The notes: a model not told the origin generated them from the letters alone. 64,000 nucleotides of DNA from Elusimicrobiota bacterium (GCA_016209035.1 JACQWX010000005.1:6688-70687), one strand, 5' to 3'. Shown: positions 7,610-21,530, counted from the first letter of the stretch. Numbers and translations: made by a program.

Positions 7610-7827
7610 GGGCCACCTCGCGCGAAGGGCACGTTCCGCGCGAGGCGCAGATGCTCGGCGACCACGAAAAGAAAAAGCCCGGCCGCTAAGACGGGAACGT
7701 GTCCCGAATTAACGACCAGGCTCAAGCGGGCGCTGGCCCTCAGGGGGCTCGGTCCCGCTACGGTGGCTCTTTTAAGGTCGCCGGATCACGCGGCCTTGGC
7801 CGCGAGTCCGAAAACTAAGACGATGAT

Positions 7828-8553
7828 CTATCCCATCCCCATGTGGTTGTTCTCCTCGCAGGAGAGCTCCCAGGCCCTCAACTCGTAGGTCTCGGCTCCT
7901 TCCCGGACGAAAGGATCGGCCTTGGCGATTCCCACGGCATCGTCCAGCGACGCGGCCTTGACGATCACCATCCCGCCCTTGTGGTCCTGGAAGGGACCGC
8001 ACAGGACGAGCCGTCCCTGCCGGTCGAGCTCCTTGAGGTGCGCCACGTGTTTTCGCACCAGGGCCTCGGTCATGGGCTTGTCCGTGCGGATGAGCGTGAT
8101 GACGTACCGGGTCCATCGGCCCTCATCCTTGGCCGCCTGTGTTTTGTCTGCTTCAGCCCGCATAGGGGACCAGTGGGTCTGGATGATCCCCCACCCGCCG
8201 TCGATGCGGGCGTAGACCTCGGTGCAGTTCCAGCGCGATTCGGTCGTCTTCCCTCCGGCCGTGCTCCACGAGACGTAGTTGAAGGTCAGCACCGCGACAT
8301 CGCCGTGGACCTGCACCTTCGGATTGATAAGCTCATAGCGGTCGATGCGAATTTTCCCGGCCAGCGAGGCGTAGTAGTCCCTGAGGGCATCCCGCCCGTC
8401 GATGCGTCGTTCCAGGTACGGATCAAAATAGGTGACTTCGGGCGCGCTCAACTCGACGAACCCTCCAGGGTCGCCATTGCCCCATCGGTCCAACGCTCTC
8501 CGTTCCTTGGTGACGATTTCGGAGGCGATGTTTTCTTTCAATGCTTCAGCCAT
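7828..8553 (-). CDS. two-domain protein: SnoaL/NTF2-like (DUF4440-like) N-terminus plus YciI-like C-terminus
   Basis: C-terminus LDRQGRLVLCGPFQD...GMVIVKAASLDDAVGIAKADPFVREG is YciI-like; N-terminal 130 aa has an NTF2-like pattern. Confidence 0.55.
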   Translation of the reverse strand: MAEALKENIASEIVTKERRALDRWGNGDPGGFVELSAPEVTYFDPYLERRIDGRDALRDYYASLAGKIRIDRYELINPKVQVHGDVAVLTFNYVSWSTAGGKTTESRWNCTEVYARIDGGWGIIQTHWSPMRAEADKTQAAKDEGRWTRYVITLIRTDKPMTEALVRKHVAHLKELDRQGRLVLCGPFQDHKGGMVIVKAASLDDAVGIAKADPFVREGAETYELRAWELSCEENNHMGMG

Positions 8554-8572
8554 GGTGTGTTGTCCTCTCTTT

Positions 8573-8755
8573 TTAGGATTCTCCCGGTTTTTCCTGCGCG
8601 CCTTTGTTGCCGGCGGAGACGTTGATTACCGCCTCGAACTCGCAGCCGCAGCTCTTGCACTTCAACTCCATATCGCAGGTCCGGACCCTGGCGACCTTAT
8701 GGCCGCACTTCGGGCAGGCGACCCAGGTGTTCCGCTTCGTTGTAATCGTCTCCAT
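8573..8755 (-). CDS. small zinc-ribbon protein
   Basis: 60 aa with CPKCGH...CKSCGC (two CxxC pairs). Confidence 0.45.
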   Translation of the reverse strand: METITTKRNTWVACPKCGHKVARVRTCDMELKCKSCGCEFEAVINVSAGNKGAQEKPGES

Positions 8756-8783
8756 ACATCACCCCCAGCCGGAACTCCCGGCG

Positions 8784-9398
8784 TCAGAGCCGTCGAATGA
8801 CGGCGATCACCTTTCCAGCGACCTCGAACGGTTGCGGGATTGGAGCGTACTTGGGATTGGCGGCTTCAAGGGAAAGTCGCCCGTCCTTCCGGCGGAGGGT
8901 CTTCACGGTGCCTTCGCCGTCCGGCGTAGCTGCGACCACGACATCCCCGGAGTCCGCAACCTTCTGCGGCTTCACGACCACGAGATCGCCTTCCAGAATC
9001 CCCAGGCCCACCATCGAGTCGCCCTTGACCCTGAGCAGGTAGGAATCCTTCGCCCGGCTGATCCTCTCGTCCAACCAGAGGATGTCTTCCACGTTCTCTT
9101 CCACCAAGTTGGGCCGGCCGGCTGGTACGCTTCCCAGTATTGGATGGCCCCGCGTTCCGATCCCTGCGATGCCAAACGTGGCGGGGGCGGCGGCCAACCG
9201 CAGGTCGCGAGCGCGGGAAGAGCCGCGCTCCAGCTTCTCCTTCTTGATGAGGACCCGGAGGTAGTAGGCCACGGTGCTAGATTTGATGCCGCCAAGGGCT
9301 GCCCCGATCTCGCGGACGGTCGGAGGGAAGCCGTGCTCCCTGGCGAAATCCGCGATAAAACGAAGAACCCGCTCCTGGCTCTTGGTCAGCGACTGCAC
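8784..9398 (-). CDS. lexA: LexA-family repressor (LexA winged-HTH plus S24 peptidase)
   Basis: VQSLTKSQERVLRFIADFAREHGFPPTVREIGAALG...; C-terminus LLRVKGDSMVGLGILEGDLVVVKPQ (Ser-Lys dyad region). Probable GTG start at 9398 (cac 9396-9398). Confidence 0.8.
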   Translation of the reverse strand: MQSLTKSQERVLRFIADFAREHGFPPTVREIGAALGGIKSSTVAYYLRVLIKKEKLERGSSRARDLRLAAAPATFGIAGIGTRGHPILGSVPAGRPNLVEENVEDILWLDERISRAKDSYLLRVKGDSMVGLGILEGDLVVVKPQKVADSGDVVVAATPDGEGTVKTLRRKDGRLSLEAANPKYAPIPQPFEVAGKVIAVIRRL

Positions 9399-9404
9399 AT
9401 GAGC

Positions 9405-9433
9405 AGTATAGCTTACAAACGTTAGATAGTCAA
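9405..9433 (-). promoter_or_regulatory. sigma70-like promoter of the lexA-like gene (TTGACT-17-TATACT); the -10 ends 7 nt from the GTG, implying a leaderless mRNA
   Basis: Reverse strand reads TTGACTatctaacgtttgtaagcTATACTgctcatGTG. Confidence 0.45.
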
Positions 9434-9436
9434 GTG

Positions 9437-9448
9437 GAACAAAATTTC
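9437..9448. promoter_or_regulatory. candidate LexA (Cheo-box-like) operator GAAC-N4-TTTC between divergent -35 elements
   Basis: GGAACAAAATTTCG; one mismatch from the palindrome GAAC-N4-GTTC. Confidence 0.3.
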
Positions 9449-9450
9449 GC

Positions 9451-9480
9451 TTGACAAGAAGCAAATGGTGGGGCTATAAT
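9451..9480 (+). promoter_or_regulatory. sigma70 promoter TTGACA-18-TATAAT divergent from lexA
   Basis: cgcTTGACAagaagcaaatggtggggcTATAATaaa. Confidence 0.5.
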
Positions 9481-9486
9481 AAACTT

Positions 9487-9549
9487 AGAATCTGAACTGA
9501 AGAACGACTAGACCTTACTTTGCCTAGCCCCCGTTTGGGGGCTTTTTTT
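9487..9549 (+). ncRNA. candidate ~60-nt small RNA (promoter-to-terminator unit with no ORF)
   Basis: Starts about 7 nt after the TATAAT and ends at the intrinsic terminator 9527-9549. No plausible ORF inside. Confidence 0.35.
9527..9549 (+). terminator. rho-independent terminator GCCCCCgtttGGGGGC plus T7
   Basis: 6-bp GC stem, 4-nt loop, TTTTTTT run. The T-run overlaps the stop codon of the convergent NYN gene. Confidence 0.6.
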
Positions 9550-10351
9550 ATGGCAGGTATCCGAGGCTCTTGGCCGTGGCCTCGTCCAGGTGGGTGACCG
9601 GAAGCCGTCCTCGATTAGGAACATCCTGTTCCCGCTTGACCAAAACGCCCTCCCGTTCCAGTTGGCCAATCGCGTCTCGCTTATCCTTCGCCGTTCCGGG
9701 GATTGCCTGTCTCTTGTCTTGTGCCCAACTGTCAATCAATTTGAAAGTCCAGTACTTCAGTGGCGCAGGGCCCTTGTGGACCATTGCCACAATCATCTTC
9801 CGGACTTCCAAGGGGTCGGCCGCTACAACCCGGGGGACTTCAACGGGGTCTTGAGGTTCCCCAGTGGCTGCCACGAGGTCTGCGGCCATGCTCCCCGGCA
9901 CTCCGATGGCGATGACGCGTTGGCCGAATTGAAAGCGAAGAAGCGTTACCAGCTTGACATAGTCGCGGTCCCCTGCAACGAGGAGAAATATTTTCTTTTC
10001 ACCATTCTTATCCGCATCTCTAGCCTGCATCACTGCATCCAGAGCAAGAACCATGTCAGCCGCATTCTTTACTCTCTCTATTGGTTTCCCGCCCGGGCCT
10101 GGTTTGGTGGTCCGCTTGACGGTCACGTTTATCGCTTCTATCCCGGCGACATCAAGCCGCCGGCGAAGTTCGGGCGGATGTTCACTGAAGTCGGCGTATG
10201 CTCTCATCACAGATGGGCGGCCATATTTCATAGCCTTGCTCACCAAGGCACCGAAATCGGGTTCCTGGCCGTGTAGATTAAGGAGGCTGTATCGAAGGTT
10301 CTCGAAGTCGATGAACATTGCGACGAACGTTTCTTTTTTCTCTTCTGGCAC
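9548..10351 (-). CDS. NYN-domain (LabA/YacP-like) protein
   Basis: N-terminus FVAMFIDFENLRYS and ...LLVAGDRDYVKLV (NYN/PIN-like). Confidence 0.7.
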   Translation of the reverse strand: MPEEKKETFVAMFIDFENLRYSLLNLHGQEPDFGALVSKAMKYGRPSVMRAYADFSEHPPELRRRLDVAGIEAINVTVKRTTKPGPGGKPIERVKNAADMVLALDAVMQARDADKNGEKKIFLLVAGDRDYVKLVTLLRFQFGQRVIAIGVPGSMAADLVAATGEPQDPVEVPRVVAADPLEVRKMIVAMVHKGPAPLKYWTFKLIDSWAQDKRQAIPGTAKDKRDAIGQLEREGVLVKREQDVPNRGRLPVTHLDEATAKSLGYLP

Positions 10352-10556
10352 AGGGACTTCCTCCTGAAATTACCTTGTGAAGTTCAATGAGAACTTCATT
10401 AAGGTATTTTACCACAATCCACGCCTCGCACATTTGTAATTTCTGCGTCGAATCCTAGTTGACGTGTCTCTCCGGCTTTCGCCGTTTCCGCACCGCATCT
10501 TCCGACTTGAGCGACTCGGGGGGAGGAAGGTAGGCTGTGGTCTGAGGTGCTGCGCC

Positions 10557-10859
10557 ATGATGCGAAGCGAACCGAAAGAAAGGATCACCGTCGGGGCGGC
10601 GAAGGCGCTACTGGCCCGGGCCAAGCAGGCCTACGAGGTCGGAGACGTCCTCACGGCCCACAGGCTGGCGGTCAAGGCGTTGCTCTGGGCCAACGACTGC
10701 CTGCATTCGCTCCAGTTGAGGAAGGCGGCGTTCAGGGACAACACCCTGTACGTCAGGAAACTCGGGCTGGGGCCGAAGGGGAAGGGCTGGAGCGTGACCG
10801 GCGCGGCCCGGGACGGCAAGTCCCTGGTGTGGACCCGGCCGGCGCGCAAGCCTCGGTAA
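10557..10859 (+). CDS. hypothetical basic protein
   Basis: MMRSEPKERITVGAAKALLARAKQAYEVGDVLTAHRLAVKALLWANDCLHSLQLRK...; protein-like composition. Confidence 0.35.
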   Translation: MMRSEPKERITVGAAKALLARAKQAYEVGDVLTAHRLAVKALLWANDCLHSLQLRKAAFRDNTLYVRKLGLGPKGKGWSVTGAARDGKSLVWTRPARKPR

Positions 10860-10916
10860 TTCGCAAGCCTTCGCCATTCTTGGCCGCCTCCTGCGTCGGT
10901 ATGGGCAGGGGGCGGC

Positions 10917-11159
10917 ATGGACTACCTGCTCAAGGACCCGGACGAGATGTCGCCAGGGGAGCGGCTGGATGCTCTGGCCGAGGTCCTGGCTGAGGGTTTC
11001 GTCTACCTGGCCGCAAACGGACTCCTGGACGACGTGCTCGGGAAAGTGGCCGAAGCGGGGCAGGGGGAATCCGCGAAGAAGGCCGCGGAATCGCCTTGCT
11101 TTCCAGCCGAACACCGTCTATCCTTCCTTCCTGACAAGGGAGGTGGACCGAGCGAATGA
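10917..11159 (+). CDS. small acidic protein translationally coupled (ATGA) to the serine recombinase; candidate recombination directionality factor
   Basis: MDYLLKDPDEMSPGERLDALAEVLAEGFVYLAANGLLDDVLGKVAEAG...; its stop overlaps the integrase ATG. Confidence 0.4.
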   Translation: MDYLLKDPDEMSPGERLDALAEVLAEGFVYLAANGLLDDVLGKVAEAGQGESAKKAAESPCFPAEHRLSFLPDKGGGPSE

Positions 11160-12985
11160 GCACGAACAACGAGTCCGGGAACGGGAACGGCAAGGCGGGG
11201 CCGGTCTGGATCGCGGTCTACACGCGCAAGTCGAACGACGAGAACCTCAATATCGAGGTGACGTCCATCGACAACCAGAAGGCCTGCTGCCGCAGCTACA
11301 TCGAAATCCAGAAGCAGAAGGGCTGGCGGGAGTACCCCGAGACCTTCGACGACCCGGCCCAGTCGGGCAAGAGCCTGGAGCGGCCGGCCATGAAGCGCAT
11401 CCTGCAGCGCATCCAGGAGGGCAAGGTCCAGGGCGTCATCGTCTACAAGCTCGACCGCCTGACGCGCAACTCAAGGGATTTCCACGGCCTGCTGGAGCTC
11501 TTCGAGAAGCACGGCGTGGCCTTCATCTCGGCCACGGAGTCCATTGACACGAAGAGCCCGCAGGGCAGGCTCATGACCGCCATCATGGTCCAGTTCGCCC
11601 AGTACGACCGCGAGCTGGACCAGGAGAGGTCCAGGGATACGCACCTCGCCCGGGCGCGCAAAGGGCTTTGGTGCGCGGGCCTGCCTCCCCTGGGGTACGA
11701 CATCAAGGACAAGCTCCTGGTGGTCAACCCGCAGGAGGCGGAGCTTGTGCGCGAGATTTTCGGGCTCTACCTCAGGCACAAGTCCACCTTGGTCGTGGCC
11801 AAGGAGCTCAACCGCCTGAATTACCGGCGCAAGACCTACAAGGCGCAGGACGGGAGACTCTTGGGCGGCAAGCCATTCGACCCGGACACGGTCTGCGGGA
11901 TTCTGCGGCGCAAGGTCTACATCGGGATCATCACGAACGGGAGAAGCGGCCAGGAGTTCCCGGGCCTGCACACGCCCCTGGTGAGCCCCCGGGTGTTCGA
12001 GAAGGTCCAGGCCATCCTGGCCGGCCACCGCCTGCGCGAGGAGGCGACGCAGTACGCCAACAACAAGCACGGCTTCCTGCTCAAGGGCCTGGTCCGCTGC
12101 GGCGAGTGCGACGCGGCCATGGTCGGGTTCGTGCAGCCGAAGAAGGACAGGCGCTATCGCTACTACCGCTGCATCGGCAGGGACAATGGCCGGCGCTCCT
12201 TCTGCCCGGTCAAGTGCATCGGGGCGGACAAGATCGAGGAATTCGTGATAGAGAAGCTGGCAGTCATCGGCAGCGACCGCCCGTTCCTGGAGAGGGTGGT
12301 CGCCAAGGTCTCGAAGGAGTCCAAGAGCAAGATCCGGCCCATGAAGCGGGAGATACGGCGAATCGAGGAGCGGATTCGCGCGACCCGGCGGGAGACGCAG
12401 AACCTGCTGAACATGGTCAAGTCCGGCGGGTCTTCCCAGGAGGCCTCGGCTGAGATCAAGCGGTTGGAGGACGCCAAGCGGGAGTTGGAGGCCCGCTCGG
12501 CCGGGCTACAGGCGCAGGTCAGCCAGCGCCAGAGGGTGGTCTACGACGTGGACGCCATCGAGGGCGCGCTGCGCCGCTTCGCCAGGTTCATCTACCGGAT
12601 GCCGCGGGCCTTGCAGGTGCTGGTGTTCCGCATCCTGGTCAAACGGGTCGTTCTGCACCGGAACAAGATATCGGTGGAAATCCACGAGCTGCCTATAGGC
12701 GCTCTGGAGATGGTCATGGACAAGAGGCTCTTGGAGGCCCCCAGGGGCCTGGGCCACTGGAAGAACAACGGGGCGAACACGGGCCAGGAGGATGCTGCGG
12801 CGGCGGGTGTCGCGGGCAACGGCGGGCCGGCTGCGGGGGAACAGGCAGGGGCGGGGGACCGGGACGCGGCGGATTCGCCCATAAAAGGGCCAGTCCTCCG
12901 CCAACTCGCCACCGGAACACCGGTTTGTGAATTGGGGGAGGACTGGCGGGGTCAACGGGATTTGAACCCGCGGTCTCTGCCTTGA
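11156..12985 (+). CDS. large serine recombinase (integrase)
   Basis: N-terminus VWIAVYTRKSNDENLNIEVTSIDNQK...YKLDRLTRNSRDF (resolvase catalytic domain); recombinase domain; zinc ribbon CGECDAAM...YYRC; coiled coil. The low-complexity tail overlaps tRNA-Asp. Confidence 0.85.
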   Translation: MSTNNESGNGNGKAGPVWIAVYTRKSNDENLNIEVTSIDNQKACCRSYIEIQKQKGWREYPETFDDPAQSGKSLERPAMKRILQRIQEGKVQGVIVYKLDRLTRNSRDFHGLLELFEKHGVAFISATESIDTKSPQGRLMTAIMVQFAQYDRELDQERSRDTHLARARKGLWCAGLPPLGYDIKDKLLVVNPQEAELVREIFGLYLRHKSTLVVAKELNRLNYRRKTYKAQDGRLLGGKPFDPDTVCGILRRKVYIGIITNGRSGQEFPGLHTPLVSPRVFEKVQAILAGHRLREEATQYANNKHGFLLKGLVRCGECDAAMVGFVQPKKDRRYRYYRCIGRDNGRRSFCPVKCIGADKIEEFVIEKLAVIGSDRPFLERVVAKVSKESKSKIRPMKREIRRIEERIRATRRETQNLLNMVKSGGSSQEASAEIKRLEDAKRELEARSAGLQAQVSQRQRVVYDVDAIEGALRRFARFIYRMPRALQVLVFRILVKRVVLHRNKISVEIHELPIGALEMVMDKRLLEAPRGLGHWKNNGANTGQEDAAAAGVAGNGGPAAGEQAGAGDRDAADSPIKGPVLRQLATGTPVCELGEDWRGQRDLNPRSLP

Positions 12986-13022
12986 CAGGGCAGCGTGTTA
13001 GACCAGGCTACACCATGACCCC
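12944..13022 (-). tRNA. tRNA-Asp (anticodon GUC)
   Basis: Reverse complement is GGGGTCATGGTGTAGCCTGGTCTAACACGCTGCCCTGTCAAGGCAGAGACCGCGGGTTCAAATCCCGTTGACCCCGCCA. Cloverleaf checked by hand: 7-bp acceptor, anticodon loop CU-GUC-AA, T-loop TTCAAAT, encoded CCA. Confidence 0.85.
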
Positions 13023-13027
13023 TTGAA

Positions 13028-13054
13028 CCGAGAGGGAACGAAGCCCCCTCTCGG
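13028..13054. terminator. perfect 9-bp stem-loop (CCGAGAGGG-N9-CCCTCTCGG) between the giant gene and tRNA-Asp; possible terminator
   Basis: Followed on the + strand by agatattatgaTTTTT. The T-run is displaced, so this is a weak call. Confidence 0.3.
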
Positions 13055-13113
13055 AGATATTATGATTTTTCCTTCCTCCGCTCAAGCCGACGCCGCGGCG
13101 TCCGCGCCGTCGC

Positions 13114-16100
13114 TCATCTCGACGCGTAGACGTAGCCGACCGTGGCGTGCATGTCCTTGAAGGCCACGGACTCGCTCGAGGGAAGCGTGATCCCCGAGTC
13201 GCCGGCCGTGGTCTTTCGCAGGCTCTCCACGCCGCGGACCACCACGATGCCGGGCTCTCCGGGCTTGCCAGGGAGCTCGCGGGTCAGGACGACCAGGGTG
13301 TCGAACATGTCGTACGAGGGGAGCTTCAGGCCCTCGCGAAGGTTGTCGATGTCCTGGGGCTTGGGGCCTTGGTCGCCGTACCAGTTCTCGCGGCCGCGGG
13401 CCATCCGGCGGCCGTGTTGGTCGGAGAACCCGGCCTTGGAGTAGGCGCGCTGGGCGGCCTTGAACTTGGCCTTGTAGTCCGCGCCTTCGAATGAGTTGAG
13501 GCCTTCGTTGAGAGGCGTCTCCCCTTTGGGGGTCGCGGGGCCGCGGGTGTTGAGGTAGCGGATGGCGCCGAGGAGCGAGCCGGCGCCGAGGGCGAGCGCC
13601 CCGGCGAGGAAGCTGCCGGCGAGGATGAGCTGGCCGCCCGCGGCGAGCAGGCCGCCCGTCAGGGCGCCGACCACGGCGCCCGGCAGGTCGAACTGCCAGC
13701 CGCCGTTCTCGCCTCGCGGCACGCTTCCGAGGAGGAACCCCAAGAAGGCGCCGACGCCGGCTGCGATCTTGGTCGCGGTCGTGATCGAGGCGCCCAGGCC
13801 GGCGAGGGATCCGCCGCTGGTCGCGAGGCTGCCTGCCAGCAAGGTCCCGGTTGCCGCGCCGGCGATGAGGGGCCAGCCGAGGAGGGCCGCCGCCAGCAGC
13901 AGGGCTCCGACGGTCAGCGCGATGGCAGCTCCCTTGCCCAGGGCGGGGTCGGACTTCTTCACGAAGGAGGCCGGGGCGGGGGTGGGCTCATCGCCCGGCG
14001 CGGAATAGGGGTCCCAGAACCGGAAGGGATCCTCGGCCCTCTCGTTGGGCTTGCCTTTGGTGGCGTTGTAGATGCCGAAGGCCAGGGCCATGACGAGGCC
14101 CACGGGCAGGAGGAACGCCATCTTCAGCAGGTAGAACGCCTGGCCGAGCCTGAACATGACGAAGCTCACGCCCGCCTTGACGGTGGGCCGGCCGCTGGGG
14201 CTCGCGGACTTCTCGTCCATGGCCTTGAGGAAGCCCCGGGAGTAGTACTTGAAGAACTCCTGGGAGCTGTCTCCCTCGACCATGGACTCCCAGACGCGGG
14301 CCGTGCCGGAGAAGAACCGGGTCGCGCGGGAGTCGGGCCAGAGCTCGTGCGACAGGCCCCACAGGAAGTTCAGGGGCGCGCGGACGACGCCGAGAGCCAG
14401 GCCCACCGCGCCGGCCAGCACGAACTCCACGAGCTGGCTGATCCACATGGGCACCCAGATGACCGAGAGCCACGCCCCGTTCCACACGGTCTTGTCGAGC
14501 CAGTAGCTCGCGTGGGACCGCAGGTTGCGGTAGAACTTGGTGTCGTGGTTCCAGGAGCTGAAGAGCTCGTAGGAATTGCGGACGCTGGCGTAGATGCGGT
14601 AGAAGACGGCCCCCAGGCCCGTGAAGATGGGCTTGGGCAGGTGCATGAGCAGGAGCGGGCTCAGCAGATAGGCGCCCGCGGTGAGCGCCGTGGCCACGAG
14701 GCCGGTCGCGCCGGTGAAGACGAGGCCCGCCCCGGTCATGAGCGCCAGCGCCCCGAAGTAGGCGCCGATGCGCTCGCCCGAGTCCATGGAGAACTCGTCG
14801 GGGTCCTCGGCCTTGCGGCTCAGGAACCGCATGAGGCCCCACCCGCCCAGGATGTTCGCCACCGACATCCAGAAGGCGTTGGTCTTGGCCGTGGCCAGGA
14901 GCAGCGCGCCGATGCCGATGGGCCCGACCATGAAGGTCAGGTAGGGGATGAGAACCCCCTGCAGAATCATGAGCACGCCCGGCAGGATGCGCAGGACCTT
15001 GGCGGTCTTGGCCGGCATGAAGGGCAGGAGCGCCAGGCTCAGGGTGACGGCGCCGTAGAACACGCCGACCATCGGGGACGCGAGGTAGAGCGGCCAGCCG
15101 AGGAACACGGCCGGGAGCAGTGCGATGGCGGAGGCGATGAGGCGCGGGACCAACGTGCTGCCCGGAGGCGGCGCGGGCTGGTCCGGGTCCGCGGGCTCCT
15201 CGGGCTTCTCGCCCGGGCTGTCGTCGGTGTCGACGCGCAGGGAGGAGGGGCTGTGCTTCGCGGGGTCGTAGGCCTCCGAGGTCTTGGCGAAGGCGAAGGC
15301 GACCCCGCCGAGGAACAGGAACGGCGTGGCCGCCACGGCCAGGACCGCCGCGCCCAACGACATCAGGTAGATGCCCAGGGTGGCCGGGATGCTCAGGGCC
15401 TTGGACTTGGAGTTGGCCGCGCCGATGAGGAGCTTCTCAGCCCGGTTGAAGAGGGCTTTCTTGGCGCCTTGGACATTGTCGAACATGAAGTGCGCCACGG
15501 CCGCGAAGTACTTGGTAACGCGCGATTCCCTGGAGAGGCGGTGCGAGGCGCCCCAGAGGAACATGACAGGCGCCTGCATGGCCGAGAGGGCCAGCCACGA
15601 GACGATGCCGGCGGCCCAGCCGACCATCTGGAGGGTCCAGACCGGGATCCAGAGGCCCGCGAGCCAGACCGCGTTCCACTTGGAAACCTTCAGATGCCTC
15701 TCGGAAAAGGCCTTCAGGCGGTCGACGAGCGGGGTGTCGCGCCAGGCCGCTCCCATGATGCGTCCCACGCCTTTGACGCCGTAGTACGCGGCGCCGAAGG
15801 CGGTGCTGATGCCGTAGCCGACCCAGCTCGGCAGGTGCATGAGCAGGAGAGCGGCCATGGGATAGGACAAGACGGTGAAGCCCAGCGCTATCCAGCCGGC
15901 CGGGCCGATGAGGGCCAGGGCCGCGCCGGTCAGCGCGCCGACGCCTCCGAAGTACGCGCTCAGCGCGGCCTCGGTGTCCCAGCGGTCGCGGACGCTCTTG
16001 CCGAGGCCGTAGCGGACGAGTCCCCAGCCGCCGAGGGCGGCCAAGGCGCCGATCCAAAGGCCGCTCCCGCCGGTCAGGGCATTGAAGACCGTGAAAGCCC

Positions 16101-17031
16101 CGAGGGCCGCGAGCGAGAAGCCGGGGATGGCACGGATCGCCTTCGGTGTGCCCTCGCCCATGAAGGGAAGGGCGGCCATCAGGACGCTGGTGGCGATGAC
16201 CGCGCCGCCCGCGTAGAGGGCGCCGGCCGCGAGCAGCGGCCAGCCCAGGATCGCGGCGGGGAGGAGCGCCAGGGCCGAAGCGAAGATCCTCGCGCCCAGG
16301 GGTTGCTTGCGGGACCGCGGAGCCTGCGGCTCGGCGTCAGAGACGGAGGGCTGGGCCTCGGGGTTGGGAGAGACCTCGGCCGGGGAGGGCGCCGCGTCCG
16401 GCGCCGCGAGCCGGGACACCCCGGCGCTGGCGTTGAGGTCGCCGAACTTGGCGGACGACGGGACGAGGGCGACATCAGAGGAGAAAGCCTGCTTGGCGCG
16501 GGTGATGATGGAGTCGAGCTTCATGCCGAGGCCATGCGCGCCCTCGGTCCGGGCTTTGGAGATGTCGCCCGTGGCCTCGAGGGCCTGGCCGACTTCCCCG
16601 GACATGCCGGCGAGCGTATCCTCGATGCTCTGGACCGGCGCGGCTTCCTGCACGGTCTCGGGCGCCGCGATGGGGACTACGGGCAGTCGGACCGGCGTCT
16701 GGAACATCACCGGCACGGCCACGGGGAGCCCCGCGTGGGACTCCAGGGTTTGGACCGGAGTCTCCTTGATAGAGGGCGCCGCGACGCCGGGGAGCGTGCT
16801 CCCGAGGTTCGCGGTGTCGAGCGTCAAAGGCGAGACCGTCATGGACCCGCCGGTGAGGACCTTGATGGTCCCGACCTGGCCCGAGCCTGGGGTCGCGGCC
16901 TGGTAGCCGACCTTGGTCCCCGTGACCTGCTGGGCCGCGGCTTCGTAGGCCGCGAAGCCCGGGCTCAGGACGACGAGGGAAAGGGAGATGACGACGGCGA
17001 CGACGGACTTGAAGATAGAGACGCGACGCAT
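13114..17031 (-). CDS. giant (~1305 aa) secreted polytopic membrane protein with three diverged tandem copies of a multi-TM module and a soluble C-terminal domain
   Basis: Start MRRVSIFKSVVAVVISLSLVVLS (signal peptide; RBS AGGAGGAG upstream). Repeated blocks: KWNAVWLAGLWIPVWTLQMVGWAAG vs VWNGAWLSVIWVPMWISQLVEFVLAG; LLLMHLPSWVGYG vs LLLMHLPKPIFTG; APVMFLWGASHRLSRESRVTKYF vs APLNFLWGLSHELWPDSRATRFF. Confidence 0.7.
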   Translation of the reverse strand: MRRVSIFKSVVAVVISLSLVVLSPGFAAYEAAAQQVTGTKVGYQAATPGSGQVGTIKVLTGGSMTVSPLTLDTANLGSTLPGVAAPSIKETPVQTLESHAGLPVAVPVMFQTPVRLPVVPIAAPETVQEAAPVQSIEDTLAGMSGEVGQALEATGDISKARTEGAHGLGMKLDSIITRAKQAFSSDVALVPSSAKFGDLNASAGVSRLAAPDAAPSPAEVSPNPEAQPSVSDAEPQAPRSRKQPLGARIFASALALLPAAILGWPLLAAGALYAGGAVIATSVLMAALPFMGEGTPKAIRAIPGFSLAALGAFTVFNALTGGSGLWIGALAALGGWGLVRYGLGKSVRDRWDTEAALSAYFGGVGALTGAALALIGPAGWIALGFTVLSYPMAALLLMHLPSWVGYGISTAFGAAYYGVKGVGRIMGAAWRDTPLVDRLKAFSERHLKVSKWNAVWLAGLWIPVWTLQMVGWAAGIVSWLALSAMQAPVMFLWGASHRLSRESRVTKYFAAVAHFMFDNVQGAKKALFNRAEKLLIGAANSKSKALSIPATLGIYLMSLGAAVLAVAATPFLFLGGVAFAFAKTSEAYDPAKHSPSSLRVDTDDSPGEKPEEPADPDQPAPPPGSTLVPRLIASAIALLPAVFLGWPLYLASPMVGVFYGAVTLSLALLPFMPAKTAKVLRILPGVLMILQGVLIPYLTFMVGPIGIGALLLATAKTNAFWMSVANILGGWGLMRFLSRKAEDPDEFSMDSGERIGAYFGALALMTGAGLVFTGATGLVATALTAGAYLLSPLLLMHLPKPIFTGLGAVFYRIYASVRNSYELFSSWNHDTKFYRNLRSHASYWLDKTVWNGAWLSVIWVPMWISQLVEFVLAGAVGLALGVVRAPLNFLWGLSHELWPDSRATRFFSGTARVWESMVEGDSSQEFFKYYSRGFLKAMDEKSASPSGRPTVKAGVSFVMFRLGQAFYLLKMAFLLPVGLVMALAFGIYNATKGKPNERAEDPFRFWDPYSAPGDEPTPAPASFVKKSDPALGKGAAIALTVGALLLAAALLGWPLIAGAATGTLLAGSLATSGGSLAGLGASITTATKIAAGVGAFLGFLLGSVPRGENGGWQFDLPGAVVGALTGGLLAAGGQLILAGSFLAGALALGAGSLLGAIRYLNTRGPATPKGETPLNEGLNSFEGADYKAKFKAAQRAYSKAGFSDQHGRRMARGRENWYGDQGPKPQDIDNLREGLKLPSYDMFDTLVVLTRELPGKPGEPGIVVVRGVESLRKTTAGDSGITLPSSESVAFKDMHATVGYVYASR

Positions 17032-17196
17032 GGACTTTGCTCCTCCTGCCTGATTTTCTGGAACCATTATCCGAAAGTCGCCTGCATGGCTGGATGGGTC
17101 CAGAGGGGAGATTCCAGGAGGATTTGGGCCTACGGTGATTTGCACCGACTGCCAGGCGAGGTCCCAGAAACCTCGGGCCTTGGGTCCTGGGTGCGC

Positions 17197-17661
17197 CTAG
17201 GGGGCCGGCTCCTTCGGATCCGAGGGCTTCGCGGACCCGCGCAGGGCCCAAAGGCGGTAGAGGATGGGGGACGCTCCGAGCACGACCCCGGAGAGGATGC
17301 CGAACCTGACCTGGCCGGCGGGCGTCGGGAACCAAGTCTCAGCGAGGACGATCCCGAAGAAGCAGCCGGCCGCGGCCATGAACAAAGCCAGCAGGCCCGC
17401 GGCGAACCAATCCGCGAAGAATCGGAACGGCTTGCTCTCCATGATCCTGTTGACCCACGGTATCTCCGAGACGGCTCCCAGGGCAAGACCGATGCCGACG
17501 AGGGCCGCGAGGATGCCCACGAAGACGGCGACGGCGATGACCGCGGCCAGGATGCCGCGGCCGATGGAGGGCTGGCGGATCGCGGCGGCCAAGGCGACCA
17601 CGATGAGCGCGACGAGCAGGGGGAGCTCGTAGAGGGTGCCCCGCTGGTCGTTCAGCCGCAT
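17197..17661 (-). CDS. small integral membrane protein (3-4 TM)
   Basis: MRLNDQRGTLYELPLLVALIVVALAAAI...; hydrophobic segments. Confidence 0.5.
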   Translation of the reverse strand: MRLNDQRGTLYELPLLVALIVVALAAAIRQPSIGRGILAAVIAVAVFVGILAALVGIGLALGAVSEIPWVNRIMESKPFRFFADWFAAGLLALFMAAAGCFFGIVLAETWFPTPAGQVRFGILSGVVLGASPILYRLWALRGSAKPSDPKEPAP

Positions 17662-17686
17662 GGGTTCCGGCGGCCTCCTCCCGGGG

Positions 17687-18196
17687 TCACTCCGGGTCCC
17701 CGCCCTGGATGTCGGCGATGGTGGACCCTGGCGGGAGGTCCTTGACCTGCTTGTGGACCTGGCCGAGCATGGACAGGTGGACCTGCCAGTCGGTCGGTTC
17801 GAAGTTGTCGGGGGTCAGGTTCCCTCCGAGCACGATGGGATGCTTGGCGGAGAGGCATTGCCCGGCTCCGAGCTTCGCCCCCCTGTCCAGGAGCCTGCGG
17901 ACCAGGTCCACGCGCAGCCACCCGGCCGCTTGCGGCGAAGTCCTGAGGGCGGCCGGCAGGTCCCCCGGAGCCAATCCCGTCCTGACGAAGGTCCCTGTGA
18001 AGGTGTCGAGGAAGTAGACCACTTCCGCGCGGCTGAAGAACCCCTCGGTCTTGACCACGAAAGCGTCTCCCATCGCGGTCACGAGCAGAGGACGCGCGCC
18101 GCGGCCCATCAGCCACCGCCAGTCATCGAGAGCGCCTTGCGCAGAGAGGTCGGCGATCTGCGCGACGAGCTTCGAGAGGTCCGGGTCCTGCGCCAT
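17687..18196 (-). CDS. hypothetical protein
   Basis: 169 aa with protein-like composition; no family recognised with confidence. Confidence 0.45.
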   Translation of the reverse strand: MAQDPDLSKLVAQIADLSAQGALDDWRWLMGRGARPLLVTAMGDAFVVKTEGFFSRAEVVYFLDTFTGTFVRTGLAPGDLPAALRTSPQAAGWLRVDLVRRLLDRGAKLGAGQCLSAKHPIVLGGNLTPDNFEPTDWQVHLSMLGQVHKQVKDLPPGSTIADIQGGDPE

Positions 18197-18218
18197 GAGG
18201 CCTCCTGGCCGATGATCG

Positions 18219-18292
18219 TGGTGGGCCGTGCAGGATTCGAACCTGCGACCCTTCGCGTGTAAGGCGAATGCTCTACCGCTGAGCTAACGGCC
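18219..18292 (-). tRNA. tRNA-Val (anticodon UAC)
   Basis: Reverse complement is GGGCCGTTAGCTCAGCGGTAGAGCATTCGCCTTACACGCGAAGGGTCGCAGGTTCGAATCCTGCACGGCCCACCA; anticodon loop CU-UAC-AC. Confidence 0.85.
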
Positions 18293-18385
18293 CGATTCGC
18301 TCTCATTCTACAACACTTACCATGAGTTGGGGGCGGTCGGCGGGAGGGGCAATGACATCTGTACACTTTTCTGTTACTTTGGGCT

Positions 18386-18694
18386 GTGGCGATACATACC
18401 CTGCCGACAACCGAAGCCCGGAGCAGGTTCCTCTCCATGGTCAAGGACGTGGACAAGACCTTCACGCGCTATGTCATCACCCACAGGGGTAAGCCCCAGG
18501 CCGTGATGATGGCCGTCGACGAGTACGAAGGGTGGCTTGAGACCCTGGAGATCTTCCGCTCGGAATCCTGGACGCGCGCGCTCTCCAGGGCGCGGCGCGA
18601 GGAGCGCGCGGGCCGCAGGCTCTCCTACGAAGCCGTGGTCGGCCCCACGGCCTCCGTCCGCGCTTCCCGCGAGAAAACCGCCGCCCGCCGGTGA
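18386..18694 (+). CDS. Phd/YefM-family antitoxin
   Basis: TTEARSRFLSMVKDVDKTFTRYVITHRGKPQAVMMAVDEYEGWLETLEI; GTG start; 4-nt overlap with the toxin gene. Confidence 0.7.
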   Translation: MAIHTLPTTEARSRFLSMVKDVDKTFTRYVITHRGKPQAVMMAVDEYEGWLETLEIFRSESWTRALSRARREERAGRRLSYEAVVGPTASVRASREKTAARR

Positions 18695-18948
18695 GCTGGC
18701 TTCACATCGAGTTCCTGCCCTCGGCGGCGGCGGACTTCCGCGCGCTCCCATCGGACATCAAATCCCGGGTCATCCTGTCCCTCGATATCATCGGCCGCGA
18801 TCCCAATGCCGGCAAGCCCCTGCAGGGCCCCTACTCGGGCCTGCGCTCTTTGCCGGTCGGCGACTACCGGGTCGTCTACCGGTGGGACGCTAGGAACTGG
18901 GTCGTCCTCATCCAGTGCATCGGCCACCGGAGGGACATCGACCGCTGA
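18691..18948 (+). CDS. RelE/ParE-family toxin
   Basis: 85 aa; ...LRSLPVGDYRVVYRWDARNWVVLIQCIGHRRDI. Confidence 0.7.
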   Translation: MSWLHIEFLPSAAADFRALPSDIKSRVILSLDIIGRDPNAGKPLQGPYSGLRSLPVGDYRVVYRWDARNWVVLIQCIGHRRDIDR

Positions 18949-18992
18949 TCTCAGGCGGATGGATATGCGCATTTTGTAGTATTCTCCCCATC

Positions 18993-21530
18993 ATGTGCGG
19001 CGTCATCGGGCTGCGGTGCGCTGGTGACCGGGACGACCTAGGCCTGGCGGCCTCGAGGCTGCTGCGGATGCTCGAGTATCGGGGCTACGACTCTACCGGC
19101 GCGGCCATCCAGACGCACGCCGGCGCGGTCACCCTGCTCAAGGACGTGGGCTCGCCCACGGTGGTCACCAAGAAGCTGGGCATCCACGGGCTCTCGGGCA
19201 AGATATTCTGCGGACAAGTGCGCTGGGCGACCTTCGGGATCGTCACCAAGGAGAACGCCCAGCCGCATGAGGTGCGCTGCAAGGCCCACCTCTACGGCGC
19301 CCACAACGGGAACGTCACCAACTGCGACCAGCTCAAGGACTGGCTGACCGGTCAAGGGCACCGGGTCGTCAGCGACAACGACGGCGAGATGCTGGTCCAC
19401 ACCATCGAGCATTTCTTCGCCCAGGAACTGCGCCGGACTTCCCGCAGGGACGAGGCCTTCAGGAAGGCGATCCTCGCCGCCGCCAGGAAGATGGTGGGCT
19501 CCTACGCGGCCGTCGTCGTGGACCCGGTCACGCACCTGGTGGCCGCCATCAAGGCCGGGAGCTCCCTCTACATGGGCGTCGGCCGCGACGCGGCGCACGG
19601 GCCCTTCACCATCGCGTCCTCGGACCTGGCGACCGTCTTGTCGCTCACCAAGATCCTCCTGCCCATCAGCGAGGACGAGTTCACGTTCTACACCCACGAC
19701 CACGCCCGGTTCTTCCATCTGCGCTCCGGCCGGCGGCTGGAGAAAGAGCCCGTGCGCAGCCGCCTCAGGGTGGAGGAGACCGAGCTCAAGGAACCCTTCC
19801 GGTACTTCATGCAGCAGGAGATATTCAGCCAGCCCGCGGCTGTTCGGAAGGTGATCGGCCTCTTCCTGCGGCGCTCTCCTCTCCTGAAGCTCTCGGGGGG
19901 CTTGGCCCGCCGGCATCCCGGCCTCGTCCGGCAGGCGCGCGCGGCCATCGGGCGCCTCTCCGCGCTGACCGACGCCGGGAAGATAGAGAAGGAGTTCGGC
20001 CGCTTCCTGAAGGGCGGTTTGTGCGCGAAGCTCTCGCGGATGACCCGCGGCCTGGGCTCCTGGCCCAGGGGCCGGAGAGCGGGTCCGGAAAGCTTCGAGT
20101 CCTCCACGGGAGGCTTCCTGGAGGAGCTCTCGGCGAAGACCCCGAAGGGCCTGCTCCCGGTCATGCGGCTCCTAGACGGCTGGTGCCTGCTCGACGAGGC
20201 GGACGAGGTCGCGGCCAGGTCCGGCGAGTTCGTGCGGAGGCTGGTCCGGGCCAAGCGAGACGGGCGCTGCGTCTACATGCTGGCCTGCGGCACCTCCTTC
20301 CACGCGGCCAAGGTGGCCTCCGTCTTCTTCAACAAGATCGCGGGCATCCGGGTGACCGCCATGCTGCCCGGCGATTTCAGGGCCGAGAGCGCGGAGTCTT
20401 TGGCCGACGGGGACCTCGTCATCGGCATCAGCCAGAGCGGGGAGACCAAGGACCTCATCGACGTCATCAACCTCATCCGCCGCTCGAGGCGCGAGGTCGG
20501 CGTCGTCACCGTGGTCAACAACGTCAACTCGACGCTGGCGCTGGAGAAGGCCGACCTCTGCCTGCCCCTGTCCTGCGGGCCGGAGATCGCGGTGCCCGCG
20601 ACCAAGAGCTTCATGAACCAGCTCGCGGTGCTCTACGTCTTGGCGCTCAAGGCCGCCGAGAGGACCCGGCCCGGCGGGGAGACCCGCAGGCGGCTCGACA
20701 ACCTCTTGAGGGTGCCGGCCCTGCTGGAGGAGACGGCGGCCTCCACCCGGGACGCGGTCGACCAGGCCGCCCTGGCCCTCTTCATGGAGCCGAGCATCCA
20801 CATCCTGGCCACGGGCATGCAGGGCGTGGCCAAGGAAGGCGCGCTCAAGGTCCGCGAGGTGGTCTTGAACCACACCGAGGGCTACGAGGGCGCGGAGTTC
20901 AAGCACGGCCCCAACACCATCCTCGGGGTCAACACCGTGTTCGGGCTGGAGGCGGTGCGCTCCATCCTGGGCTCCTTCGCGCGGTTCTCTGACGAGCTCG
21001 CCCGCAGGCGGTCGCTCTCGGCCAAGAGCCTGGCGAAGCTCTACAAAGCCGTGGCGGACTACGCCTTCGATGACATCGAGCCCTCGGGCCTCGACCGGGC
21101 GCAGAGCCACGCCTTCCGGCGCGTCTTCGAGAAGCACGACTTCTTCGCGAGCCTCTACACCAACTACCCGCTGGTGTTCGTGACCGGCCCCGCGGAGCGC
21201 GACGTCAACCTCACCATCTCGCAGATCAACACCCACAAGATCCGCGGCGCCGACGTCACCATCATCGCGGAAGACAACGCCGCTCTGCGCGACGCGGTGA
21301 GCCGCCCCCAGCCCACCCGGTTCGACAAGGAGTACCGGTTCGGCTACATCCGACTGCCCCGGACGGACGACGACCTCCTGCCCTTCTTCACCAGCACCAT
21401 CGCGCTCCAACTCCTGGCGCTCCACATGAGCGTGCGCAAGCTCACCCTGCTCGACAAGCTGGAGATCCTCGACCACGGCGTGCACCCGGACTCTCCTAAG
21501 AACGTCAGCAAGTCCATCACGGTGGACTGA
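18993..21530 (+). CDS. GlmS-like glutamine--fructose-6-phosphate aminotransferase homolog with large insertions (~846 aa)
   Basis: N-terminus MCGVIGL (class II GATase nucleophile Cys2); SIS motifs CVYMLACGTSFHAAK and GISQSGETKD; GlmS-like C-terminus KNVSKSITVD. About 230 aa longer than typical GlmS. Confidence 0.7.
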   Translation: MCGVIGLRCAGDRDDLGLAASRLLRMLEYRGYDSTGAAIQTHAGAVTLLKDVGSPTVVTKKLGIHGLSGKIFCGQVRWATFGIVTKENAQPHEVRCKAHLYGAHNGNVTNCDQLKDWLTGQGHRVVSDNDGEMLVHTIEHFFAQELRRTSRRDEAFRKAILAAARKMVGSYAAVVVDPVTHLVAAIKAGSSLYMGVGRDAAHGPFTIASSDLATVLSLTKILLPISEDEFTFYTHDHARFFHLRSGRRLEKEPVRSRLRVEETELKEPFRYFMQQEIFSQPAAVRKVIGLFLRRSPLLKLSGGLARRHPGLVRQARAAIGRLSALTDAGKIEKEFGRFLKGGLCAKLSRMTRGLGSWPRGRRAGPESFESSTGGFLEELSAKTPKGLLPVMRLLDGWCLLDEADEVAARSGEFVRRLVRAKRDGRCVYMLACGTSFHAAKVASVFFNKIAGIRVTAMLPGDFRAESAESLADGDLVIGISQSGETKDLIDVINLIRRSRREVGVVTVVNNVNSTLALEKADLCLPLSCGPEIAVPATKSFMNQLAVLYVLALKAAERTRPGGETRRRLDNLLRVPALLEETAASTRDAVDQAALALFMEPSIHILATGMQGVAKEGALKVREVVLNHTEGYEGAEFKHGPNTILGVNTVFGLEAVRSILGSFARFSDELARRRSLSAKSLAKLYKAVADYAFDDIEPSGLDRAQSHAFRRVFEKHDFFASLYTNYPLVFVTGPAERDVNLTISQINTHKIRGADVTIIAEDNAALRDAVSRPQPTRFDKEYRFGYIRLPRTDDDLLPFFTSTIALQLLALHMSVRKLTLLDKLEILDHGVHPDSPKNVSKSITVD

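What the first reader, a model, noticed from the sequence alone, without database searches (positions are those of the whole stretch)
13114..17031. Giant secreted membrane protein built from three tandem polytopic modules, next to tRNA-Asp
The ~1305-aa protein has a signal peptide, then a ~260-aa Ala/Pro/Ser-rich region, then three diverged copies of a ~300-aa multi-TM module. Modules 1 and 2 align block by block (W-rich helices such as KWNAVWLAGLWIPVWTLQMVGW against VWNGAWLSVIWVPMWISQLVEF). The third is degenerate and Gly/Ala-rich. Each module is preceded by an acidic Pro-rich linker. A ~130-aa soluble C-terminal domain follows. I recognise no known family. Its position directly beside the tRNA integration hotspot, with a small membrane protein and a hypothetical downstream, suggests an accessory surface or effector function.
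Basis: seen in the sequence. Interest (0 to 1): 0.6.

Follow-up and report, generated by a model that had tools for sequence, protein, structure and literature searches.

The report
Two-module Elusimicrobia membrane protein, orphan tail
This is a real gene for a large membrane protein found only in Elusimicrobia, built from two (not three) ancient copies of a helical module that matches no known family or solved fold; it is an inherited gene with a strain-specific tail, not cargo of the mobile element beside the tRNA.

Summary
The ORF is real: window 13114-17031, minus strand, 1,305 aa, with an AGGAGG ribosome-binding site before the ATG at 17031.

It has a Sec-type signal peptide and an Ala/Pro/Ser/Val-rich region of about 200 aa. 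Two homologous all-helical membrane modules follow, at aa 224-610 and 600-1004. They are 30% identical (BLASTP E 2e-41), and a module HMM scores them E 1e-144 and 1e-151.

The proposed third module is not a copy. Its score against the module profile is no better than shuffled controls.

The last ~300 aa are a 0.9-kb insertion relative to the closest relative, which is otherwise colinear. They hold about four Gly/Ala-rich helices and a 148-aa soluble domain with no homolog found.

The two-module core is shared by about 100 proteins and 35 GTDB species, all Elusimicrobiota, in varied gene neighbourhoods. It has no Pfam, NCBIfam or PDB sequence match. A confident AlphaFold model (pLDDT 87.7) has no Foldseek match in the PDB.

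The N-terminal leader also occurs on S41, S8, M50 and Rce1-like peptidases of the phylum.

The serine-recombinase island lies on the other side of tRNA-Asp.

Function is inferred only. I favour an envelope housekeeping enzyme or processing factor with one His/Asp/Arg/Asn site per module. It is a new family with moderate interest.

The parts
13114..17031 (-). Whole gene, 1,305 codons plus stop. The mechanical ORF extends to a GTG at 17145.
   Evidence: ORF. (translation). (GC3 0.90-0.98). (AGGAGG about 9 nt before the ATG at 17031). (homolog N-termini align to aa 2-8).
16930..17031 (-). Sec-type signal peptide, aa 1-34. It has the family motif LSPG(F/L)xxY(E/Q)AxA and a possible AxA|Q cleavage site.
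   Evidence: hydrophobic segment aa 11-23. (motif conserved in the family and in other leader-bearing proteins). Cleavage is inferred, not tested.
16312..16929 (-). Leader, aa 35-240: an Ala/Val/Pro/Ser-rich spacer, a conserved ~40-aa motif (aa ~141-185, nt 16477-16611; V..LExAGxIxxAxxExAxGxGxxLxxxLTG in consensus), then an acidic Pro-rich linker.
   Evidence: composition. (alignment A3). (same leader on S41/PDZ, S8, M50, Rce1-like and Bax1-I proteins).
15283..16311 (-). Module 1, aa 241-583 (HMM match aa 224-610). It has three tight helical hairpins (H1-H6), an amphipathic segment and two long helices of 47 and 40 aa. Conserved residues: G334-G-W-G-x2-R340, H399-L-P, D432-T433, W452-N-x2-W-L-x3-W-x-P463.
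   Evidence: (AF2 pLDDT mostly above 85).
15154..15282 (-). Acidic Pro-rich linker between the modules, aa 584-626.
   Evidence: Pro 23%, Asp 14%, net charge -7. (no regular structure; pLDDT drops to about 60).
14056..15153 (-). Module 2, aa 627-992 (HMM match aa 600-1004). It is a paralog of module 1 with the same conserved set: G729-G-W-G-x2-R735, H797-L-P, D830-T831, W850-N-x2-W-L-x3-W-x-P861.
   Evidence: 30% identity, E 2e-41. (E 1.8e-151)..
13117..14006 (-). Strain-specific C-terminal tail, aa ~1009-1305: a Pro-rich linker, about four Gly/Ala/Leu-rich hydrophobic helices (aa 1037-1157, nt 13561-13923) and an orphan 148-aa soluble region (aa 1158-1305, nt 13117-13560).
   Evidence: window 13105-14006 has no counterpart in L001, where 16 nt separate the flanks. 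(not a module). (no homolog of the soluble part). (AF2 pLDDT 52, uninformative). (GC3 0.90-0.95, so it is coding).
12944..13022 (-). tRNA-Asp (GTC), 91 nt after the stop codon. It is syntenic with L001.
17197..17661 (-). Upstream gene for a 154-aa protein with four membrane helices. It is conserved only in the closest relative.
   Evidence: (55% identity in L001/L006 only). (no Pfam hit).

Best explanation
Shown:
- The gene encodes a membrane protein of a small family confined to Elusimicrobiota.
- A Sec-type signal peptide and a ~200-aa Ala/Pro-rich leader precede two homologous ~380-aa all-helical membrane modules.
- The modules arose by an old internal duplication. Both copies keep the same conserved residues: GGWG-x2-R, H-L-P, D-T and W-N-x2-W-L-x3-W-x-P.
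- The last ~300 aa are a strain-specific tail added by a 0.9-kb insertion at the 3' end of the gene.

Inferred:
- The protein sits in the cytoplasmic membrane with the leader in the periplasm.
- Each module crosses the membrane about eight times, and the two modules pack side by side as a fused pseudo-dimer.
- The conserved polar residues lie at helix ends and in the loops after helix 6, not in mid-membrane. I therefore favour a housekeeping envelope enzyme or processing factor that acts at the membrane-water interface, with one His/Asp/Arg/Asn site per module.
- It may work in the same envelope context as the peptidases that share its leader.

My confidence in the anatomy and evolutionary history is about 0.9. 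My confidence in the interface-enzyme function is about 0.35. The confidence value given for this explanation (0.4) is for the whole statement, function included.
For: - Gene reality and start site.
- Duplication: E 2e-41; two HMM matches, E 1e-144 and 1e-151.
- The same residues are conserved in at least 85% of 80 module sequences.
- All-helical model of aa 241-1020 with pLDDT 87.7 and pTM 0.68.
- Helix, loop and charge layout giving an even number of membrane passes per module, so both modules share one orientation.
- Restricted, single-copy, vertically inherited family: 106 hits among 1.84 billion representatives; 35 species, all Elusimicrobiota.
- Colinearity with L001.
- Variable neighbourhoods elsewhere, with no conserved partner gene.
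- Leader shared with PDZ-S41, S8, M50 and Rce1-like peptidases and a Bax1-I protein.
- The tail is an insertion and an orphan.
- Other members have no tail or unrelated tails.
Against: - No catalytic motif of any known enzyme class was recognised.
- No sequence or fold match exists to any enzyme or transporter.
- Orientation in the membrane is unresolved. The short loops that carry Lys/Arg are on the side that the signal peptide would place in the periplasm, which goes against the positive-inside rule.
- Model coordinates could not be inspected, so clustering of the conserved residues in space is not shown.
- The link to peptidases rests only on a shared leader.
Confidence: 0.4

Rival explanations
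1. A secondary transporter or channel. The two homologous modules would form the two halves of a pseudo-symmetric permease, as in many transporters that arose by internal duplication. It would move an envelope precursor, lipid or solute.
For: - Tandem duplicated membrane-spanning modules.
- No partner ATPase is conserved nearby.
- A complete one-module ortholog (P0096) exists in a neighbourhood with the same flanking genes (in a different order) and could act as a homodimer.
- 8 of 40 family members give weak, sub-threshold hits to the DMT-clan family TMEM144, best E 0.0015.
Against: - No conserved charged or polar residue lies in mid-membrane.
- The TMEM144 hits are below any curated cut-off and absent from the window protein.
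- Foldseek finds no transporter fold in the PDB. The best hit has E 0.2 and TM-score about 0.1.
- The profile search against PDB sequences found no significant match (best E 0.14, none a transporter).
Confidence: 0.25
2. A structural envelope scaffold or tether. The membrane modules would anchor a long Ala/Pro-rich periplasmic leader whose conserved 40-aa motif docks to a common partner. This would gather leader-bearing peptidases and this protein at one envelope site.
For: - The leader motif is conserved on proteins with unrelated payloads.
- Pro-rich spacers are the kind of element that spans the periplasm in TonB and TolA (established knowledge, by analogy only).
Against: - About 760 aa of well-conserved membrane-spanning sequence, with invariant His/Asp/Arg/Asn in both modules, is far more than an anchor needs.
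- No partner was identified.
- No other leader-bearing ORF lies within the window or in loci L001-L005.
Confidence: 0.15
3. A polymorphic-toxin-like effector. The conserved body would deliver a strain-variable C-terminal toxin. The window-specific Tdi1_C-like gene (17687-18196) would be its immunity protein.
For: - The C-terminal tail differs from the closest relative and varies across the family.
- A gene matching the immunity family T6SS_Tdi1_C (E 3.3e-11) is also a window-specific insertion two genes upstream.
Against: - The tail matches no toxin family.
- No gene follows the tail; tRNA-Asp comes next.
- The candidate immunity gene is upstream and separated by another gene.
- The body is a membrane protein with many helices and no known secretion-system domain.
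- Most family members have no tail at all.
Confidence: 0.05
4. An artefact: a collapsed-repeat or chimeric assembly, or a chance long ORF in high-GC DNA.
For: - High-GC DNA yields long spurious ORFs. The antisense ORF 14347-17745 (1,132 aa) is an example.
- The tail has no homolog anywhere.
Against: - The GC1/GC2/GC3 pattern is typical of coding sequence throughout, tail included.
- Homologs at 30-72% identity occur in more than 50 independent assemblies.
- The module DNAs are only about 71% identical over at most 131 nt.
- Both flanks of the tail are syntenic with L001.
Confidence: 0.03

Closest known systems
Pseudo-symmetric membrane proteins made by internal tandem duplication (for example MFS 6+6 or DMT 5+5 such as TMEM144/EamA)
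   Same: Two homologous multi-helix modules sit in one polypeptide and probably share one membrane orientation. A one-module ortholog also exists.
   Different: - There is no sequence or fold match.
- Each module has about eight passes plus amphipathic helices and two very long helices of 40-47 aa.
- The conserved polar residues are at interfaces, not in mid-membrane.
- The TMEM144 hits are sub-threshold and appear in only 8 of 40 members.
Polymorphic toxin proteins (Rhs, CdiA and similar), which have a conserved body and a variable C-terminal domain
   Same: The body is conserved and the C-terminal tail is strain-variable. A predicted immunity-family gene lies nearby.
   Different: - There is no toxin domain, no downstream immunity gene and no secretion-system domain.
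- The body is an integral membrane protein.
- Most members lack a tail.
Lineage-specific N-terminal export or sorting leaders (for example the ESPR extended signal peptide or YSIRK-type signal peptides) and Pro-rich periplasm-spanning spacers (TonB, TolA)
   Same: A conserved signal-peptide motif, a low-complexity spacer and a short conserved motif are shared by proteins with unrelated payloads in one phylum.
   Different: - There is no sequence relation to any described leader, and NCBIfam has no model for it.
- The leader is attached both to soluble peptidases and to multi-pass membrane proteins.
- Its function is untested.
- The comparison with ESPR, YSIRK and TonB comes from general knowledge, not from a test made here.
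Heme-handling proteins with a W-rich WWD motif flanked by conserved His (CcmC, CcmF, CcsA)
   Same: Each module has a Trp-rich conserved helix start (W-N-x2-W-L-x3-W-x-P) about 50 residues after a conserved His at a helix end. This resemblance was recalled from memory.
   Different: - The motif is not WWD.
- No Pfam hit to the cytochrome c assembly families was found.
- No CcsBA or CcmF structure appears among the Foldseek matches listed.
- I treat it as a lead only.

Membership tests
Any curated protein family (Pfam-A, NCBIfam, PADLOC, PHROGs) | A score above the family's threshold against its profile HMM | tested here: not met
   The 1,305-aa protein gave no family at E up to 1 in Pfam or NCBIfam. 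PADLOC gave nothing. PHROGs gave nothing for the C-terminal domain. Scanning 40 family members gave only sub-threshold TMEM144 hits in 8 of them.
DMT superfamily / TMEM144-like transporters | A Pfam gathering-level match and the 5+5-helix DMT fold | tested here: not met
   The best E is 0.0015 in 8 of 40 members, with none in the window protein. No DMT structure appears among the Foldseek PDB matches listed.
Proteins of known three-dimensional fold (PDB) | Significant sequence or structure similarity to a solved chain | tested here: not met
Polymorphic toxin systems | The C-terminal domain varies between close relatives | tested here: met
   The tail is absent from L001, which is 76% identical in DNA over the rest of the gene. 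Other members carry unrelated tails.
Polymorphic toxin systems | A recognisable toxin domain and an immunity gene immediately downstream | tested here: not met
   No family or homolog was found for aa 1158-1305. The stop codon is followed by 91 nt and then tRNA-Asp. The Tdi1_C-like gene is two genes upstream.
Polymorphic toxin systems | An N-terminal trafficking domain of a known secretion system (T5SS, T6SS, T7SS and others) | tested here: not met
   No Pfam or NCBIfam hit was found. The N-terminal part is a Sec-type signal plus a phylum-specific leader.
Cargo of a tRNA-integrated genomic island | Lies between the integrase and the att site on the 3' side of the tRNA, is absent from close relatives, and has atypical composition | tested here: not met
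   The recombinase (11156-12985) and the low-GC stretch are on the 3' side of tRNA-Asp, while this gene is on the 5' side. The gene is syntenic in L001. Its GC and GC3 match its neighbours. Only the 0.9-kb tail is strain-specific.
The new two-module family itself (Elusimicrobiota 'hypothetical proteins', about 1,000 aa) | A leader, two modules with the GGWG-R / HLP / DT / WN-WL-W-P motifs, and full-length alignment to the other members | tested here: met
   The window protein aligns over aa 2-1018 at 72% identity to P0001 and at 30-68% to 54 others. All motif residues are present in both modules.

The most novel reading that the evidence does not exclude
The module would be a previously unseen membrane-protein fold with an interfacial His/Asp/Arg/Asn active site, present twice per protein. 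The shared N-terminal leader (the LSPGxxxYxAxA signal motif plus the ~40-aa LExAGxI...GxGxxLxxxLTG motif) would be an Elusimicrobiota-specific sorting or tethering signal. That signal would assemble this protein with S41, S8, M50 and Rce1-like peptidases into a phylum-specific envelope processing machine. Strain-variable C-terminal tails would tune its specificity.
Probability: 0.15. Interest if true: 0.7.

Novelty: new variant of a known kind. Interest (0 to 1): 0.4.

Why it matters
Elusimicrobiota are almost entirely uncultured, and their envelope biology is essentially unknown.

- This family is single-copy and conserved across the phylum.
- It has a confident predicted structure that matches no solved fold, which makes it a concrete target for structural and functional work.
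- The leader it shares with several classes of envelope peptidases may be a phylum-specific sorting or tethering signal. If so, it would define a set of envelope proteins that function together.
- The finding also shows how a strain-specific C-terminal tail can be grafted onto a conserved membrane protein by an insertion 82 nt from a tRNA gene.

If the function turns out to be an ordinary transporter, the result is simply a new family annotation.

Tried and rejected
1. Third module. This was rejected by BLASTP, a module-profile HMM with 200 shuffled controls, and hmmsearch. DNA comparison of the tail with the rest of the gene gave only a 33-nt match at 79% identity (E 0.008) at the LLGWPL helix.
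2. Known families. Pfam, NCBIfam, PADLOC, PHROGs, and PDB sequences searched with both a single sequence and a profile all gave nothing.
4. C-terminal domain.
   - The word-index search of 5.8 billion clusters found nothing.
   - The JGI metagenome scan found nothing.
   - tblastn against all 43 fetched loci found nothing.
   - The single-sequence AF2 model was too poor (pLDDT 52) to search with.
5. Conserved partner genes.
   - Clustering neighbours over 36 loci showed only synteny within one subclade: pilin-like, response regulator and saccharopine dehydrogenase genes.
   - YfhO, Wzy_C or PMT_2-like genes lie near the gene in several loci, but without fixed position or orientation. I judged this too weak to use.
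   - The upstream four-helix protein occurs only in the closest relative.
6. Leader census by word-index search. This failed because low-complexity words saturated the candidate list. The census therefore rests on the exhaustive HMM search.
7. att repeat of the tRNA-Asp island. No convincing direct repeat was found in 7000-13100.
8. Literature. A full-text search for Elusimicrobia lineage-specific protein families found nothing about this protein.
9. Heme-handling (WWD) resemblance. This was recalled from memory, and no search supported it.
10. Topology from charge bias. It conflicts with the signal peptide, so orientation is left open.


Full report
**Is it there?**

The minus strand carries an uninterrupted ORF at 13114-17145. 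GC at codon position 3 is 0.90-0.98 along its whole length, against about 0.5 at position 2, and this holds for the last 300 codons too. The ORF is therefore coding and not a chance high-GC frame. The 1,132-aa ORF on the opposite strand (14347-17745) is its shadow.

The ATG at 17031 follows AGGAGG at the usual spacing. Homolog N-termini align to residues 2-8.

The protein starts with MRR, a 14-residue hydrophobic core and SPGFAAYEAAAQ. A region of about 200 aa follows, rich in Ala 15%, Val 10%, Pro 10% and Ser 10%.

**Modules**

Residues ~248-610 and ~630-1016 align at 30% identity over 390 columns, E 2e-41. I built a profile from 80 module sequences of the family. It finds exactly two modules in the window protein, at aa 224-610 (E 9e-144) and aa 600-1004 (E 2e-151).

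The proposed third module fails every test:
- BLASTP against aa 1021-1305 gives E of 0.39 or worse.
- The module profile scores the tail at -11.9 bits. Two hundred composition-matched shuffles gave a mean of -5.2 and a maximum of +2.6.
- At the DNA level only 33 nt around the 'LLGWPL' helix resemble module 2.

The tail does begin like a module, with an acidic Pro-rich linker and then a helix carrying LLGWPL. A partial, long-decayed duplication of the module start is possible but cannot be demonstrated.

The module DNAs are at most 71% identical over 131 nt. That excludes a collapsed-repeat artefact.

**Family and distribution**

- A word-index search returned 55 homologs at 31-72% identity, and every hit that a source names by organism is labelled Elusimicrobia or Elusimicrobiota; one is labelled only 'bacterium'. 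Most are about 1,000 aa and end at query residue ~1000-1018.
- An exhaustive profile search of 1.84 billion cluster representatives found only 106 proteins, 53 of them below E 1e-30.
- In the GTDB species genomes, 35 loci carry the gene, each on a different species' MAG; 34 record titles name Elusimicrobia/Elusimicrobiota (one of these titled Endomicrobium trichonymphae) and one says only 'bacterium'.
- Seventy-nine family proteins have two full modules and none has three.
- P0096 is a complete one-module version. It has the same two neighbours, a response regulator and a saccharopine dehydrogenase, as the two-module gene of L005, although the response regulator lies upstream in L042 and downstream in L005.

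**Genomic context**

Window 24914-12944 is colinear with the contig of the closest relative, L001, which is about 76% identical in DNA. The shared order is YfhO-like, GlmS-like, ParE/Phd, tRNA-Val, a small four-helix membrane protein, the giant gene and tRNA-Asp.

There are three insertion/deletion differences:
- L001 alone has a DNA_alkylation gene.
- The window alone has 17650-18220. This insertion starts right at the 3' end of tRNA-Val and carries a 169-aa gene matching T6SS_Tdi1_C (E 3e-11).
- The window alone has 13105-14006, which encodes residues ~1009-1305 of the giant protein.

The large serine recombinase (11156-12985) and the low-GC stretch (8-12 kb) lie on the 3' side of tRNA-Asp, away from this gene.

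In more distant relatives the neighbourhood is different each time. Clustering neighbours over 36 loci revealed only synteny within one subclade and no constant partner. The core gene is therefore inherited vertically and is not island cargo.

**The tail**

About one member in five has a C-terminal extension, of at least four unrelated kinds:
- Gly/Ala-rich multi-helix tails (P0013, P0007, P0028, P0031, P0048).
- A ~110-aa soluble domain (P0022, P0050, P0052).
- A ~150-aa soluble domain (P0095).
- The window's own tail.

The window tail has about four hydrophobic helices made of 64% Gly, Ala and Leu. A 148-aa region follows for which no homolog was found. The word-index search of 5.8 billion clusters, the JGI metagenome scan and the 43 fetched loci all gave nothing. 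No family matched either. Single-sequence AlphaFold gave pLDDT 52, and below 50 for the soluble part, so no fold search was attempted.

**Structure of the core**

AlphaFold2 on aa 241-1020, with a 56-sequence alignment, gave mean pLDDT 87.7 and pTM 0.68. The model is entirely helical.

Each module has this layout:
- Three tight hairpins, H1-H6, with uncharged turns of 3-4 residues.
- The conserved H-L-P at the end of H6.
- An amphipathic helix and a Lys/Arg-rich segment carrying R-D-T.
- A 34-47-residue Trp-rich helix that starts W-N-x2-W-L-x3-W-x-P.
- Two amphipathic Lys/Arg-rich helices.
- A 40-residue hydrophobic helix.

If H1-H6 and the two long helices each cross the membrane once, a module has eight passes. 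Both modules and both linkers then share one orientation.

The residues conserved in at least 85% of all 80 module copies are Gly, Pro and Trp within helices. The only polar ones are R340/R735, H399/H797, D432/D830, T433/T831 and N453/N851. All five lie at helix ends or in loops.

**The leader**

The exhaustive search also returned about 40 proteins that match only profile positions ~4-230.

They share two elements:
- The signal-peptide motif LSPG(L/F)xxY(E/Q)AxA.
- After a low-complexity spacer, a ~40-aa motif, V..LExAGxIxxAxxExAxGxGxxLxxxLTG.

Their payloads are varied:
- PDZ_4 plus Peptidase_S41: 8 with PDZ_4, 7 of them also with S41.
- Peptidase_S8: 3.
- Peptidase_M50: 2.
- Rce1-like: 1.
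- Bax1-I: 1.
- Several unannotated membrane proteins.

One S41 member ends in a membrane helix followed by a Lys/Arg tail. That places its leader and peptidase domain outside the cytoplasm. No second leader-bearing ORF lies in the window.

**Unresolved topology**

The signal peptide and the leader's association with exported peptidases put the start of H1 in the periplasm. Yet Lys/Arg residues sit in the short loops on that same side, and the turns on the opposite side are uncharged. This goes against the positive-inside rule. The same Lys/Arg-rich junction precedes the first membrane helix in the other leader-bearing membrane proteins. I leave the orientation open.

**Mechanism**

What is shown: the architecture, the duplication, the conservation pattern, the distribution and the history of the tail.

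What is inferred: a cytoplasmic-membrane location, pseudo-dimeric packing and the function.

Two observations guide the functional guess. The conserved polar residues are interfacial and present in both modules. The leader is otherwise found mainly on peptidases. I therefore favour an envelope enzyme or processing factor acting at the membrane surface (about 0.35). The alternatives are:
- A pseudo-symmetric transporter (0.25), whose only specific support is sub-threshold TMEM144 hits in 8 of 40 members.
- A scaffold or tether (0.15).
- A polymorphic-toxin-like effector whose immunity protein would be the Tdi1_C-like gene (0.05).
- An artefact (0.03).

**Comparison with known families, and verdict**

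The protein belongs to no curated family and to no solved fold that could be tested here. It resembles duplicated membrane permeases in architecture only, and polymorphic toxins only in having a variable tail.

The sequences already sit in public databases as 'hypothetical protein', so what is new is the description, not the sequences. I rate it a new family within the broad, well-known class of internally duplicated membrane proteins.

The 'accessory effector beside a tRNA hotspot' reading is not supported for the core gene.

Interest is moderate at 0.4. It comes mainly from the confident model without a fold match and from the shared leader.

Noticed in passing
window 16477-17031 (minus strand; aa 1-185 of the giant protein); also P0116-P0148: The N-terminal leader, made of the LSPGxxxYxAxA signal motif, an A/P-rich spacer and a ~40-aa LExAGxI...GxGxxLxxxLTG motif, is shared with PDZ-S41, S8, M50 and Rce1-like peptidases, a Bax1-I protein and unannotated membrane proteins. 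It may be a sorting or tethering signal specific to this lineage; the taxonomy of these other leader-bearing proteins was not checked.
   Followed up: partly
window 17650-18220 (gene 17687-18196, minus strand): A 169-aa gene matches the immunity family T6SS_Tdi1_C (E 3.3e-11). It lies in a 570-bp insertion relative to L001 that starts right at the 3' end of tRNA-Val (18219-18293). No toxin gene is recognisable beside it.
   Followed up: partly
window 8000-12985: A large serine recombinase (11156-12985, plus strand; Resolvase, Recombinase and Zn_ribbon_recom domains) has a 3' end that overlaps tRNA-Asp by 42 nt. A lower-GC stretch (0.60-0.61) containing a NYN-domain gene (9548-10351) lies next to it. 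It looks like an element integrated at tRNA-Asp. No att repeat was found, and L001 has different genes at this position.
   Followed up: partly
window 18386-18948 (plus strand): A Phd/YefM antitoxin and ParE toxin pair, conserved at the same place in L001.
   Followed up: no
window 14347-17745 (plus strand): A 1,132-aa ORF lies antisense to the giant gene. It is a shadow ORF typical of high-GC DNA and not a gene: it was not among the ORFs that passed the GC3/GC2 coding filter, and the homologs found match the minus-strand product.
   Followed up: yes
L041/L042 (P0096); compare L005: A complete ortholog (604 aa) has the leader plus only one module. It has the same neighbours, a response regulator and a saccharopine dehydrogenase, as a two-module member, though in a different order. 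The number of modules therefore varies within the family.
   Followed up: partly
window 13972-16311 (aa 241-1020): The charge bias of the short loops contradicts the membrane orientation implied by the signal peptide. The same Lys/Arg-rich junction precedes the first membrane helix in other leader-bearing membrane proteins.
   Followed up: partly
window 18915-21530 (plus strand): The GlmS-like ORF (GATase plus SIS domains) is 871 aa, much longer than a typical GlmS of about 610 aa (general knowledge). L001 has an 860-aa counterpart.
   Followed up: no
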